From assembly GCF_009914755.1 (NCBI RefSeq), contig NC_060936.1: a stretch of DNA of 64,000 nucleotides. The stretch is one strand, 5' to 3'. Source of the stretch: the human T2T-CHM13v2.0 reference genome, Homo sapiens. Below the pieces are notes generated by a model. That model saw only the letters and a program-made list of their open reading frames with translations. It made no database searches and was not told the DNA's origin. This document shows positions 20,566 to 60,880 of this stretch, piece by piece (position 1 is the first letter of the stretch; the number at the start of each line of letters is the position of its first letter). A program made the translations under genes and the position numbers.

Positions 20566-20667
20566 TCAGTGGCCTTCGTCACTACTCGATGAGCAGGCCC
20601 AGTCATAGATGACCAAGGGAATGCTGACCAAGGAGAACAACACCCCCAGGCCCAAGAAAAGGGCAGC
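20566..20667 (-). CDS. SLC38A1: SLC38A1 terminal coding exon: AALFLGLGVLFSLVSIPLVIYDWACSSSSDEGH* (last TM helix and tail)
   Basis: pyrimidine tract plus cag at 20668-20670; TGA at 20566-20568. Confidence 0.98.
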   Translation of the reverse strand, partial: AALFLGLGVLFSLVSIPLVIYDWACSSSSDEGH

Positions 20668-21206
20668 CTGGAGCAAGAGAAAGGCAAGGGTTATTTTCAG
20701 TGCAGCAAAATTTTTCCACATGTACCTGGGGAAAAAAAATAGAACAGTTTTTCCTCTCCCTTTGTGTCCTCTGGTATTCAGAGTTTGTCACAACCATGGC
20801 TGAACTGTGAGAATCTTTCTAAAATTTTATGAATCTGATTCTGCAAGGATGGGAAAATAGGAAAAAAAAAAAACTAGCTAAGCAGAGTAGTCCTCTATGT
20901 CCCATTCTTTGACTTCATGGTCACCTCAAGTGTATGTATCCATTCTACAAATAACTGGGTATCCTTATGGCTTCTCTCAAACTAAGATTACAACCAAGGG
21001 GGAATAAAGGCCTTAGAAAATATCCAGGTCATTTTGTTATTCATTACCTACCAACTTAGCTTATCACTGGCAAGCAAACATTTCTGTTTGAAAAAGTGGA
21101 AAAAAAACATACAAAAGCAAAATAGATTTGATTAAGTGAAATAGGAAACAGGTGTCAAAAACTAAGTTACCTGAAGGGCTGATGAAGGCCATAGGTGGAC
21201 AGATGA

Positions 21207-21537
21207 TGATATGGTTTGGCTGTGTCCCTACCCAAATCTCATCTTGAATTTTAGCTCCCATAATTCCCACGTGTCATGGGAGTTACCTGGTAGGAGGTAA
21301 TTGAATCCTGGGGGCGGGTCTTTCCCATGCTGTGCTTGTGATAGTGAATAAATCTCATGAGATCTGGTGGTTTTATAAAGGGGAGTTACCCTGCACATGC
21401 GCTCTGCCTGCCACCATGTAAGACGTGACTTTGCTCCTTGTTTGCCCTCCGCTATGATTGTGAGGCCTCCCCAGTCATGTGGAATTGTGAGTCAATTAAA
21501 CCTCTTTCCTTTATAAATTACCCTGTCTCAGGTATTT
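21207..21537 (+). mobile_element. THE1 (THE1B-like) MaLR solo LTR, 5' ~331 bp, split by an L1
   Basis: tgatatggtttggctgtgtcc start; continues at 27699. Confidence 0.93.
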
Positions 21538-27687
<6,150 letters not shown>

Positions 27688-27698
27688 CTCAGGTATTT

Positions 27699-27730
27699 CT
27701 TTATTAGCAGTGTGAGAACAGACTAATACA
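27699..27730 (+). mobile_element. THE1 LTR 3' remnant (32 bp)
   Basis: ctttattagcagtgtgagaacagactaataca; LTR TSD gatga (21202-21206) versus gatta (27731-27735). Confidence 0.92.
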
Positions 27731-27872
27731 GATTACTAAATCCAGAATCCAGAGAACACAAGATTATAAGTTCCTTGCGCTTGAGCATGTTCAGTGAGAG
27801 CGCTGCAGGGAGAAGGATGATGCATTCTGAGAGCCAACAGGGCTGGACTGGAAACTGGAGGAAGAGAAAGAG
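27723..27872 (-). CDS. SLC38A1: Alternative terminal exon of SLC38A1: LFLFLQFPVQPCWLSECIILLPAALSLNMLKRKELIILCSLDSGFSNLY* (454+49 = 503 aa product)
   Basis: pyrimidine tract plus tag acceptor, phase-0 compatible with exon 14, 49 open codons, TAG at 27723-27725, AATAAA at 27700-27705; length agrees with my recollection of an annotated 503-aa isoform (not verified). Confidence 0.7.
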   Translation of the reverse strand, partial: LFLFLQFPVQPCWLSECIILLPAALSLNMLKRKELIILCSLDSGFSNLY

Positions 27873-28803
27873 CTAAGGAAGGAGAGGAGCAAATTGGGGG
27901 TTGACATGGCTGCACATGGCATACCATCCTGGGTCCAGTCTAACTCCCAGTGGTCCTTACACAGATGGAACCCTTGTCTAATGCCATTTGGAAGACCCTA
28001 CTACTAGTTTCATTATGGGACCAGGGTTGGAGAGGCTCAGAATTCATGGGCAGCAGGCCTCCACCATTTTCAGATTTAATCTGAATATATTGTCCTGTTG
28101 TGCCAGAGTGACTGTTTCTTCCTCTCTGTCCTCATTAAGCCCCTACAGATAAGGCTTGGAAGGATTTGGGAATTAAGGCTTCAGGGGTGATCATGTTGGG
28201 GAACTGGATGCTCTACTAGCATCAGTGCTGCTTTTCCTAAATGCACAGAGATGACCCTCCTGCCTACACCTCTCATCTGGATCTGTTGACTCAGGTAACA
28301 GGTACAATTGCAGTGCTTACACTAGCTGGGAGGGCAGCTGAGAAGCCTTCTCCAAGACCAAGCAAAATGGAGCTCCAGAAGGGACTCAGGTAGCAGCCAC
28401 TTCACCCCTGCTTCCCTCACTGTCTCCAAGTGCACCACGTTCAAGATGCCCTTGAACTTCACCAGACCTGGAAACAAGAATCCCAATATAGAAAGGTAGT
28501 TTTTGAATCCAGGTCTGTTGTTCCAAAGCATATCTGTCAAATAATAAAAAAGACTATTTAAGCTAACTCAGACATTTTAATTAAGGCATTGCATGTTCCC
28601 TGGGCTGTAGGGAGGAGTTACATGACTAGAAATCATATGGAAACAGTGGACTGCATAACATCTGTGAGTCCCTCGTCACTTCCTCTCTTGCTGAAGACTA
28701 GACACTGTCCTATAGAGACACAGGAGGATGAATGTCCATTCTTCTGACTGGCCATGCCCTGGATCAGAACAAAAGCTGAGGCACAATAACAGTAAAACCA
28801 GAG

Positions 28804-29315: not shown

Positions 29316-29413
29316 CCAAATTCTTTGAGTTCCTTTATCTCCATCCTGGTCTGTGATTTTTAAATAAAGAGATGAAGGAAGAATGAAAATAAGCATGTTA
29401 GCAGATGTAACTC
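29316..29413 (-). CDS. SLC38A1: SLC38A1 coding exon 14 (98 nt): VTSANMLIFILPSSLYLKITDQDGDKGTQRIW
   Basis: cag/gtatgt boundaries; ends in phase 0; visible in ORF 29253..29609. Confidence 0.98.
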
Positions 29414-40624: not shown

Positions 40625-40698
40625 CTGTTTCTTTTGAACAGATCAATAGGAGGTTTATTGAATATATAGACAGCAATGTCACTGAAGTCAAAAGTACC
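40625..40698 (-). CDS. SLC38A1: SLC38A1 coding exon 4 (74 nt): VLLTSVTLLSIYSINLLLICSKET(G)
   Basis: tag/gtaagc boundaries; phase matches the previous exon across a 20,015-nt intron. Confidence 0.97.
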
Positions 40699-42107: not shown

Positions 42108-42472
42108 TGATATGGTTTGGCTGTGTCCCCACCGAAATCTCACCTTGAATTGTAACTCCCATAATTTCCACGTGTTTTGGGAGGGACCCGGTGGGAGATA
42201 ATTGAATCATGGGGGCAGTTCTCTCATACTGTTCTTGTGGTAGTGAATAAGTCTCATAAGATCTGATGGTTTTTTTATAAGGGGAAACCCCTTTCACTTG
42301 TCTCTCAATTCTCTCTTGTCTGCGGGCAAGTAAAATGTGTTGTTCGCCTTCCGCCATAATTGTGAGGCCTCCCCAGCCACGTGGAACTGTGAGTCTGTTA
42401 AACCTCTTTTTCTTTATAAATTACCCAGTCTCAGGAATGTCTTTATCAGGAGCATGAAAATGGACTAATACA
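42108..42472 (+). mobile_element. Intact THE1 solo LTR
   Basis: tgatatgg...gactaataca; perfect TSD ctgat at 42103-42107 and 42473-42477. Confidence 0.95.

Positions 42473-60712: not shown

Positions 60713-60880
<168 letters not shown>

What the first reader, a model, noticed from the sequence alone, without database searches (positions are those of the whole stretch)
27670..27900. A 32-bp orphan LTR end supplies both the stop codon and the poly(A) signal of an alternative SLC38A1 terminal exon
Seen: on the minus strand a pyrimidine tract plus TAG acceptor (exon start 27872) opens a 49-codon frame in phase with exon 14. Its last codons (CTG TAT TAG) run into the antisense terminus of the THE1 LTR (tgtattagtc), and AATAAA follows 17 nt after the stop (27700-27705), still inside the LTR remnant. 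Cleavage 15-30 nt later would fall in the TSD or first bases of the L1 5'UTR. Inference: two nested transposons jointly built a 3' end, giving a 503-aa SNAT1 that replaces the last TM helix and the C-terminal His and escapes the 5.9 kb UTR with a UTR of about 50 nt. Knowledge: THE1 is simian-specific, and a C-terminal His has been linked to pH sensitivity in SLC38 system A/N carriers. I recall a 503-aa isoform being annotated, so the exon may be known; its transposon origin and functional effect are the interesting part.
Basis: partly seen in the sequence, partly recalled or inferred. Interest (0 to 1): 0.8.

Follow-up and report, generated by a model that had tools for sequence, protein, structure and literature searches.

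The report
Transposon-capped alternative last exon of SLC38A1
An already annotated alternative last exon of the amino-acid transporter gene SLC38A1 gets its stop codon from the end of an old retroviral-type repeat that a LINE-1 element later split, but whether the repeat's poly(A) signal is used is unproven and the annotated transcripts run past it.

Summary
The sequence features are real. Acceptor 27872 opens a phase-0 frame of 49 codons ending CTG TAT TAG (stop 27725-27723). The stop lies in the antisense terminus of a MaLR (THE1-type) LTR, and AATAAA follows 17 nt later (27705-27700).

Corrections:
- The LTR is not an orphan stub. It is a 363-bp solo LTR split by a full-length, same-sense, decayed L1 (27687-21538) with an 11-bp target-site duplication. 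The other 331 bp lie at 21537-21207.
- Stop and hexamer are family-borne. Of the 39 closest genomic copies, 32 keep TAG and 32 keep AATAAA. Spacing is 17 nt in 36 of 37 measurable copies.
- The 47 codons upstream come from single-copy intron DNA.
- An open frame this long is not unusual here (119 of 679 AG sites).

The poly(A) claim is unsupported. All five RefSeq alternative exon models read through 27680 and end inside the L1, at 27321, 23929 and 23194. The downstream context is not U/GU-rich.

The closest known mechanism is forced exonization and cryptic polyadenylation upstream of tandem intronic L1s (Kaer 2011). The exon is known, and transposon-derived stops and 3' ends are a known kind. 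Interest is low to moderate, and function is untested.

The parts
29316..29413 (-). Its donor at 29316 is phase 0.
   Evidence: Hub table; sequence; frame.
27873..27895 (-). Pyrimidine tract and TAG acceptor in front of exon start 27872.
   Evidence: Read directly: 18 of the 21 bases before the AG are pyrimidines.
27723..27872 (-). Coding part of the alternative last exon: 49 codons plus TAG. From acceptor 27854 it is 43 codons plus the same TAG.
   Evidence: RefSeq exons 27321-27872 and 23194/23929-27854 (hub table). No Pfam family for the tail.
27731..27872 (-). Single-copy intron DNA that encodes the first 47 codons and the first base of codon 48.
   Evidence: Own-genome search with 27731-28130 found only itself: 1 candidate, 1 match. 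No other match in the window.
27688..27730 (-). LTR piece A: the antisense terminus of a MaLR (THE1-type) solo LTR, 43 bp. It supplies 2 bases of the Leu codon, the Tyr codon, the TAG and the AATAAA.
27723..27725 (-). Stop codon TAG inside the LTR terminal motif TGTATTAG.
   Evidence: TAG is kept at this position in 32 of 39 closest genomic copies, and 2 more have TAA.
27700..27705 (-). AATAAA hexamer inside the LTR, 17 nt after the stop and 13 nt before the first L1 base. Its use is unproven.
   Evidence: AATAAA in 32 of 39 copies, and spacing of 17 nt in 36 of 37 measurable copies.
27688..27698 (-). 5' copy of the L1 target-site duplication, AAATACCTGAG.
21538..27687 (-). Full-length L1 of 6150 bp including its A tail, in the same orientation as the gene, with broken reading frames.
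   Evidence: Pfam: L1 ORF1 domains at 25634-26080 and endonuclease at 24864-25412. Longest open stretch is 280 aa. The first 600 bp match L1 5' ends genome-wide: 5526 candidates, 39 scored non-self matches at 86-87% identity starting at query positions 1-10. A tail seen.
21527..21537 (-). 3' copy of the L1 target-site duplication.
21207..21537 (-). LTR piece B: the remaining 331 bp of the same LTR, ending ...CCATATCA.
   Evidence: 10373 first-look candidates in the genome; 39 scored non-self copies at 87-91% identity.
27321..27722 (-). Annotated 3' UTR of the RefSeq exon 27321-27872. It reads through the hexamer into the L1 5' UTR. No poly(A) hexamer lies within 60 nt of its end.
   Evidence: Hub table.
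23194..23929 (-). The stretch between the two other annotated 3' ends (23929 and 23194). Both ends lie inside the L1.
   Evidence: Hub table; at 23929 an AGTAAA starts 14 nt before the end; at 23194 an AATAAA starts 7 nt before the end.
20566..20667 (-). Canonical last coding segment: 33 residues ending in His, holding the last transmembrane helix. The alternative exon replaces it.

Best explanation
This is an annotated alternative last exon in the last intron of SLC38A1, assembled from three layers.

(1) Single-copy intron DNA provides two strong in-frame acceptors (27872 and 27854) and 47 codons of unselected-looking sequence.

(2) A simian MaLR (THE1-type) solo LTR of 363 bp inserted antisense. 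Its terminal motif closes the frame with TAG. The motif is part of a family-borne module, 'stop, 17 nt, AATAAA'.

(3) A full-length L1 later inserted in the gene's orientation, 13 nt after that hexamer.

Shown: the anatomy, the frame, the origin of the stop, and the loss of the last helix and of the C-terminal His.

Inferred: the exon is terminal because transcripts that use these acceptors find no used donor and are ended at or in the L1. This could happen at cryptic sites in the A-rich sense strand of the L1, where the annotation places the ends. It could also happen, as a lesser route, at the LTR hexamer just in front of the L1 5' UTR.

The resulting protein (503 aa if the canonical one is 487) carries a moderately hydrophobic replacement tail. 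It is most likely a low-level, primate-restricted by-product rather than a selected isoform.
For: - Frame and stop.
- LTR split by the L1, with an 11-bp target-site duplication.
- The two LTR pieces align colinearly to an intact 365-bp copy at 42472-42108 that has an exact 5-bp duplication, ATCAG.
- Family-borne TAG (32 of 39 copies), AATAAA (32 of 39) and 17-nt spacing (36 of 37 measurable).
- Exon body is single-copy.
- L1 identity, orientation and decay.
- All 5 annotated alternative exon models run past 27680, to 27321, 23929 or 23194: hub table.
- The L1 sense strand carries 14 AATAAA and 4 ATTAAA between the stop and the canonical last exon.
- Published mechanism (PMC3192792, abstract and passages): intronic full-length L1s in tandem orientation cause exonization from cryptic acceptors and cryptic polyadenylation upstream of the L1. 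The same paper cites earlier work on polyadenylation inside L1 ORF1 and ORF2.
- Transposon-associated poly(A) sites are common and mostly non-conserved: 3188 human sites (PMC2553571, passages).
Against: - The annotated end at 27321 has no poly(A) hexamer within 60 nt and no A-rich genomic stretch after it. It is probably a truncated cDNA end and says little about the true 3' end.
- The two ends deep in the L1 may come from predicted models built on reads that map to many L1 copies.
- The LTR hexamer is canonical, is the first one after the stop, and sits exactly where Kaer 2011 describe cryptic sites. It could therefore be the main site while the annotation misses it.
- No expression, 3'-end or cross-species data were available.
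- The replacement tail has a 19-residue stretch with mean Kyte-Doolittle hydropathy 1.64 (canonical 2.52). A working eleventh helix cannot be excluded.
Confidence: 0.6

Rival explanations
1. The LTR-borne AATAAA at 27705-27700 is the working poly(A) signal. Cleavage falls in the last bases of the target-site duplication or the first bases of the L1, giving an mRNA with a 3' UTR of about 40-50 nt that escapes the 5.9-kb canonical UTR.
For: - It is a canonical hexamer, the first after the stop.
- A TGTA motif lies 25 nt upstream.
- The hexamer is inherited in 32 of 39 family copies.
- It sits 13 nt before a tandem full-length L1 5' UTR. Kaer 2011 found that this arrangement promotes cryptic polyadenylation upstream of the L1 in a minigene, dependent on the L1 5' UTR (PMC3192792 passages).
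Against: - 0 of 5 annotated alternative exon models end there; all read through (hub table).
- The 50 nt after the hexamer are 22% T and 46% G+T, with no clear U/GU-rich downstream element.
- Lee 2008 report that LTR-associated poly(A) sites show a strong bias to the LTR plus strand, whereas this LTR is antisense (PMC2553571 passage).
- In Kaer's survey, cryptic polyadenylation was seen in only 13 of 49 genes.
- SLC38A1 does not occur in the one readable supplement of the Singh 2018 intronic-polyadenylation paper. That file may not be the full atlas.
Confidence: 0.25
2. The exon encodes a selected, functional SNAT1 variant. It would be a transporter with a substitute last helix and no C-terminal His, hence with altered pH dependence, trafficking or dominant-negative action.
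For: - Two in-frame acceptors share one stop.
- The tail has a hydrophobic stretch near the usual threshold for a membrane helix (1.64).
- The stop is in the last exon, so the exon-junction rule for nonsense-mediated decay does not apply (established knowledge).
- The C-terminal His is implicated in pH sensing in SNAT2.
- SLC38 carriers have 11 helices with an outside C terminus (PMC8246967 passage).
Against: - The open frame is not longer than chance gives in this intron (119 of 679).
- The other two frames of the same exon run open for 26 and 44 codons before their first stop.
- The tail has no Pfam match.
- The tail cannot predate the LTR in its present form.
- The inferred empty site reads 58 codons, so the end of the tail is an accident of the insertion.
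- No paper on such an isoform was found.
- Two further acceptors, 28533 and 28467, give tails of 24 and 2 residues. That pattern looks like splicing noise.
Confidence: 0.12

Closest known systems
Forced exonization and cryptic polyadenylation upstream of tandem full-length intronic L1 elements (Kaer et al. 2011, PMC3192792)
   Same: A full-length L1 in the host gene's orientation lies inside an intron. A cryptic acceptor in the intron upstream of the L1 creates a terminal exon. A poly(A) signal lies just upstream of the L1 5' UTR.
   Different: Here the annotated transcripts do not stop before the L1 but run into it. The poly(A) signal and the stop come from a second, older transposon. SLC38A1 is absent from that paper's main text (0 occurrences).
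Transposon-derived poly(A) sites and terminal exons (Lee, Ji and Tian 2008, PMC2553571), 'skipped/hidden terminal exon' class
   Same: A non-conserved intronic terminal exon whose 3' region is transposon sequence. MaLR and L1 are the top LTR and LINE families in their table.
   Different: Their LTR-borne sites are strongly biased to the LTR plus strand, where the LTR's own signal lies. Here the LTR is antisense and the hexamer lies on its minus strand.
Premature polyadenylation inside sense-oriented L1 (19 signals in ORF1 and ORF2; works cited as refs 37 and 38 in PMC3192792, known to me as Perepelitsa-Belancio and Deininger 2003 and Han et al. 2004; author names are recalled)
   Same: The annotated ends at 23929 and 23194 lie in the L1 ORF2 region on the sense strand, next to AGTAAA and AATAAA.
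   Different: This L1 is old and decayed. The ends come from annotation only and may be affected by reads that map to many L1 copies.
Splice and poly(A) signals on the antisense strand of intronic ERVs and solo LTRs (van de Lagemaat et al. 2006, PMC1794541)
   Same: An antisense MaLR LTR in an intron contributes processing signals. That paper finds antisense motifs similar in strength to sense ones.
   Different: The LTR gives no splice site here, only the stop and a candidate hexamer.

Membership tests
ERVL-MaLR solo LTR (THE1/MST group) | LTR about 350-370 bp long with TG...CA termini | tested here: met
   43 + 331 - 11 = 363 bp. It starts TGTATTAG and ends CCATATCA in gene orientation. The size range itself is recalled.
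ERVL-MaLR solo LTR (THE1/MST group) | 5-bp target-site duplication | tested here: inconclusive
   Flanks are TAATC and TCATC, a 4 of 5 match. The in-window relative at 42472-42108 has an exact ATCAG on both sides.
ERVL-MaLR solo LTR (THE1/MST group) | High-copy dispersed family with full-length LTR matches | tested here: met
   10373 first-look candidates. 39 of 39 scored non-self matches cover the piece at 87-91% identity.
ERVL-MaLR solo LTR (THE1/MST group) | Match to a named consensus (THE1A-D, or MSTA/B versus older MST) in Dfam or RepeatMasker | not testable with these tools
No repeat library is held. The claim of simian specificity holds for THE1A-D, MSTA and MSTB only (PMC10735291).
LINE-1, full-length insertion | ORF1 and ORF2 domains in order on one strand | tested here: met
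   Transposase_22 and Tnp_22_dsRBD at 25634-26080 (E 4.8e-43). Endonuclease at 24864-25412 (E 2.7e-06, just above the cut-off).
LINE-1, full-length insertion | A tail, target-site duplication, and a 5' end shared with other full-length copies | tested here: met
   A tail and an exact 11-bp duplication. 39 scored genomic matches start at query positions 1-10 of the 5' UTR.
L1-induced exonization with cryptic polyadenylation (Kaer 2011) | Tandem full-length intronic L1 with a cryptic acceptor in the upstream intron | tested here: met
   acceptors are in RefSeq (hub table).
L1-induced exonization with cryptic polyadenylation (Kaer 2011) | Transcripts end upstream of the L1 | tested here: not met
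   0 of 5 annotated models end before 27687 (hub table). Unannotated ends could not be examined.
L1-induced exonization with cryptic polyadenylation (Kaer 2011) | Dependence on the L1 5' UTR | not testable with these tools
   Needs a minigene with and without the L1 5' UTR.
Functional mammalian poly(A) site at 27705-27700 | AAUAAA or a close variant 10-30 nt before cleavage | tested here: met
Functional mammalian poly(A) site at 27705-27700 | U- or GU-rich downstream element | tested here: inconclusive
   22% T and 46% G+T in the next 50 nt; only GGTTGCTT stands out. No trained predictor was available.
Functional mammalian poly(A) site at 27705-27700 | Observed cleavage cluster | not testable with these tools
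   No 3'-end data are held. The annotation shows none.

The most novel reading that the evidence does not exclude
The antisense end of this THE1-type LTR subfamily is a ready-made terminator cassette. It has stops in two of three frames, then AATAAA 17 nt after the TAG, and this is kept in about four of five copies. At SLC38A1, the tandem L1 5' UTR slows the polymerase just downstream and so activates the cassette. The product would be a simian-restricted SNAT1 mRNA with a 3' UTR of about 45 nt that escapes control through the 5.9-kb UTR. It would encode a carrier with a substitute last helix and no pH-sensing His, used in particular tissues.
Probability: 0.07. Interest if true: 0.55.

Novelty: new member of a known kind. 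Interest (0 to 1): 0.25.

Why it matters
If the short-UTR, His-less isoform were made in quantity, it would be a primate-only way to alter glutamine uptake and its pH dependence, and to uncouple SNAT1 from regulation through its long 3' UTR.

As it stands, the locus is a clean worked example of how three layers build an annotated protein isoform: unique intron DNA, an antisense LTR and a sense L1.

The one wider point is that this LTR subfamily carries an inherited 'stop, 17 nt, AATAAA' module on its antisense end. Antisense intronic copies could therefore cap cryptic exons elsewhere. That could be checked genome-wide against annotation and 3'-end atlases.

Tried and rejected
- A bacterial promoter and terminator scan of 27600-27900 found nothing and is irrelevant to a human gene.
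- A Pfam scan found no family for the 49-aa tail or for three of the five L1 fragments scanned.
- A PDB sequence search with the 33-aa canonical tail gave 0 matches at E up to 1. The tail could not be placed on a solved SLC38 structure.
- I at first expected, from recall and from the in-window copy at 42472-42108 (which has GATAAA), that AATAAA was a private mutation of this copy. The 39 closest genomic copies rejected that: 32 have AATAAA.
- Literature searches found nothing on this exon or its transposons.
  - SLC38A1 + isoform + polyadenylation: 27 papers, 15 listed. The one I opened concerned SLC38A10.
  - SLC38A1 / LINE-1 / intronic polyadenylation: 20 papers. The one I opened names SLC38A1 only as a prognostic gene.
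  - SLC38A1 / splice variant / C-terminal / SNAT1: 100 papers, 15 listed.
  - SLC38A1 / transposable element / exonization / THE1 / alternative last exon: none of the 20 listed holds SLC38A1.
  - SLC38A1 + transposable element: 40 papers, 15 listed, none on this topic by title or abstract start.
  - For all of these, only the listings were seen, apart from the papers named.
- Supplements:
  - Singh 2018: one xlsx file, 0 occurrences of SLC38A1.
  - PMC11289681: two files, 0 occurrences.
- Earlier findings of this scan were not open.
- Baird 2006 (PMC1513278) is not held. It is cited here only through PMC7805547.
- The L1 subfamily and the LTR subfamily could not be named because no repeat library is held.

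Full report
**The observation**

On the minus strand, the penultimate coding exon of SLC38A1 ends at 29316 (...AGA ATT TGG|gtatgt). The coding parts listed by the hub sum to 1240 nt inside the window. Frame 1 is the only open one, so the junction is phase 0 after 413 in-window codons.

The sequence ...ctcctctccttccttag|CTCTTTC places an acceptor at 27872. The sequence ...cttcctccag|TTTCC places a second one at 27854. Both are starts of RefSeq exons (hub table).

- From 27872 the frame runs 49 codons (LFLFLQFPVQPCWLSECIILLPAALSLNMLKRKELIILCSLDSGFSNLY) to TAG at 27725-27723.
- From 27854 it runs 43 codons to the same stop.
- The two upstream annotated acceptors, 28533 and 28467, stop early at TGA 28461-28459, after 24 and 2 codons.
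- AATAAA lies at 27705-27700, 17 nt after the stop.
- The canonical tail is AALFLGLGVLFSLVSIPLVIYDWACSSSSDEGH.

So the isoform does replace the last hydrophobic helix and the terminal His.

An open frame of this length is not remarkable. 119 of 679 AG sites on this strand of the intron are followed by at least 49 open codons.

**The repeat anatomy**

It is not. After the stretch 27730-27688 the sequence turns into an L1 5' UTR. 6150 bp further on, an A tail is followed by AAATACCTGAG, the same 11 bases as at 27698-27688. The LTR then continues for 331 bp to ...CCATATCA at 21207.

Both pieces align colinearly to an uninterrupted 365-bp relative at 42472-42108, at 77-79% identity. They overlap by the duplicated bases. 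That relative has an exact 5-bp duplication, ATCAG.

The element is therefore a 363-bp solo LTR in antisense orientation, split by a later L1 insertion. The 32 bp are simply the part ahead of the L1 target-site duplication. The LTR's own flanks are TAATC and TCATC, a 4 of 5 match.

The L1 is confirmed by several results:
- Pfam finds ORF1 domains at 25634-26080 and endonuclease at 24864-25412, both on the minus strand.
- The element is decayed; its longest open stretch is 280 aa.
- It is full-length. Its first 600 bp match 5526 candidate places in the genome, and the 39 scored non-self matches start at query positions 1-10 with 86-87% identity.

**Where the codons come from**

A search of the window's own genome with 27731-28130 found only the locus itself. 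The acceptors and the first 47 codons are therefore single-copy intron DNA at that sensitivity.

The LTR contributes two bases of the Leu codon, the Tyr codon and the stop. Joining the two LTR flanks in a script gives 58 open codons for the inferred empty site, with the stop TAA at 21169-21167. The LTR thus moved the stop forward by nine codons rather than creating a stop where none existed.

**The stop and the hexamer are family features**

The genome holds at least 10373 first-look candidates for the LTR. The 39 scored non-self copies are 87-91% identical to piece B. I fetched all 39 with their flanks. Results at the homologous positions:

| Position | State | Copies |
|---|---|---|
| Stop | TAG | 32 of 39 |
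| Stop | TAA | 2 of 39 |
| Hexamer | AATAAA | 32 of 39 |
| Hexamer | ATTAAA, AGTAAA, GATAAA, CATAAA | 1 each |
| Hexamer | AATAGA | 2 |
| Hexamer | gapped | 1 |
| Spacing | 17 nt | 36 of 37 measurable |
| Second-frame stop overlapping the hexamer | TAA | 33 of 39 |

These copies are the closest relatives, not a random sample. The more distant in-window copy has GATAAA. With that caveat, the antisense end of this subfamily carries an inherited 'stop, 17 nt, AATAAA' module. My first guess, that the hexamer was a private mutation, was wrong.

**Is the hexamer used?**

Evidence against use as the main site:
- All five alternative exon models in the hub table (27321-27872, 23194-27854, 23929-27854, 23929-28467, 23929-28533) run past the proposed cleavage zone at 27670-27690.
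- The implied 3' UTRs are 402, 3794 and 4529 nt, not about 50.
- The 50 nt after the hexamer are 22% T and 46% G+T, with no obvious downstream element.
- LTR-borne poly(A) sites in genes are reported to be strongly biased to the LTR plus strand (PMC2553571, passage).
- The end at 23929 has an AGTAAA starting 14 nt before it, and the end at 23194 has an AATAAA starting 7 nt before it. The L1 sense strand offers 14 AATAAA and 4 ATTAAA.

Points that keep use of the hexamer open:
- The end at 27321 has no hexamer within 60 nt and no A-rich stretch behind it. It looks like a truncated cDNA, not a real site.
- Ends deep inside an L1 may be artefacts of reads that map to many copies.
- Kaer et al. 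showed that tandem full-length intronic L1s provoke exonization from cryptic acceptors and cryptic polyadenylation just upstream of the L1, dependent on the L1 5' UTR in a minigene. Cryptic polyadenylation was seen in 13 of 49 surveyed genes (PMC3192792, abstract and passages).

I put use of the LTR hexamer as the main site at about one in four. Some use is more likely than that. No 3'-end data could be consulted. SLC38A1 is absent from the one readable supplement of Singh 2018 and from two files of PMC11289681. This is weak evidence only.

**Age**

Nesting shows that the LTR came first and the L1 second. THE1A-D, MSTA and MSTB are reported to be confined to simians, and THE1 elements to be more than 40 million years old (PMC10735291, passages).

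I could not name the subfamily because no repeat library is held. The simian limit is therefore likely but not shown for this copy. The best pairwise identities are 87-91% for the LTR and 86-87% for the CpG-rich L1 5' UTR. Both fit insertions tens of millions of years old.

**Function**

SLC38 carriers are described as having 11 helices with an outside C terminus (PMC8246967, passage). The C-terminal His of SNAT2 is thought to sense low outside pH (PMC7805547, passage citing Baird 2006; the original paper is not held).

The new tail has a best 19-residue hydropathy of 1.64, against 2.52 for the canonical helix. It has no Pfam family. It could span the membrane, but poorly.

Four observations point away from a selected isoform:
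- The frame length is within chance.
- Several acceptors are in use.
- The tail is young.
- No literature on it turned up.

I therefore consider a selected function unlikely (about 0.12). The total of 503 residues depends on a recalled canonical length of 487.

**Comparison with what is known, and verdict**

The exon and both junctions are already annotated. Transposon-derived stops, terminal exons and poly(A) sites are a well-described class.

I found no paper that describes this particular exon's transposon make-up (listings only, apart from the papers named). A standard repeat track would, however, show it at once.

It is a new member of a known kind. The family-wide terminator-like module on the antisense LTR end is the only part with wider reach, and it can be tested genome-wide.

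Noticed in passing
window 42108-42472 (-): A second, uninterrupted MaLR-type solo LTR of 365 bp, in the same antisense orientation, with an exact 5-bp target-site duplication ATCAG. It lies in the large intron between the exons at 40625-40698 and 60714-60829. It is only 77-79% identical to the split LTR and has GATAAA where that one has AATAAA.
   Followed up: partly
window 28459-28533 (-): Two further annotated acceptors (28533 and 28467) in the same intron give tails of 24 and 2 residues before TGA 28461-28459. The predicted proteins would simply lack the last helix.
   Followed up: partly
window 21167-21201 (-): In the inferred empty site (before the LTR and the L1), the frame from 27872 would run 58 codons to TAA 21169-21167. 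A donor-like CAG|GTAACT lies at 21171/21170, so the stop overlaps the start of a possible intron. Whether an ancestral internal exon existed here was not examined.
   Followed up: no
window 21538-27687 (-): The sense strand of the decayed full-length L1 holds 14 AATAAA and 4 ATTAAA hexamers. Over the whole window, AATAAA is over-represented: 159 matches against 93.7 expected, and 0 of 100 shuffles reach 159.
   Followed up: partly
window 27321: The RefSeq exon 27321-27872 ends at a place with no poly(A) hexamer within 60 nt and no A-rich genomic stretch behind it. This 3' end is probably a truncated cDNA end, not a cleavage site.
   Followed up: partly
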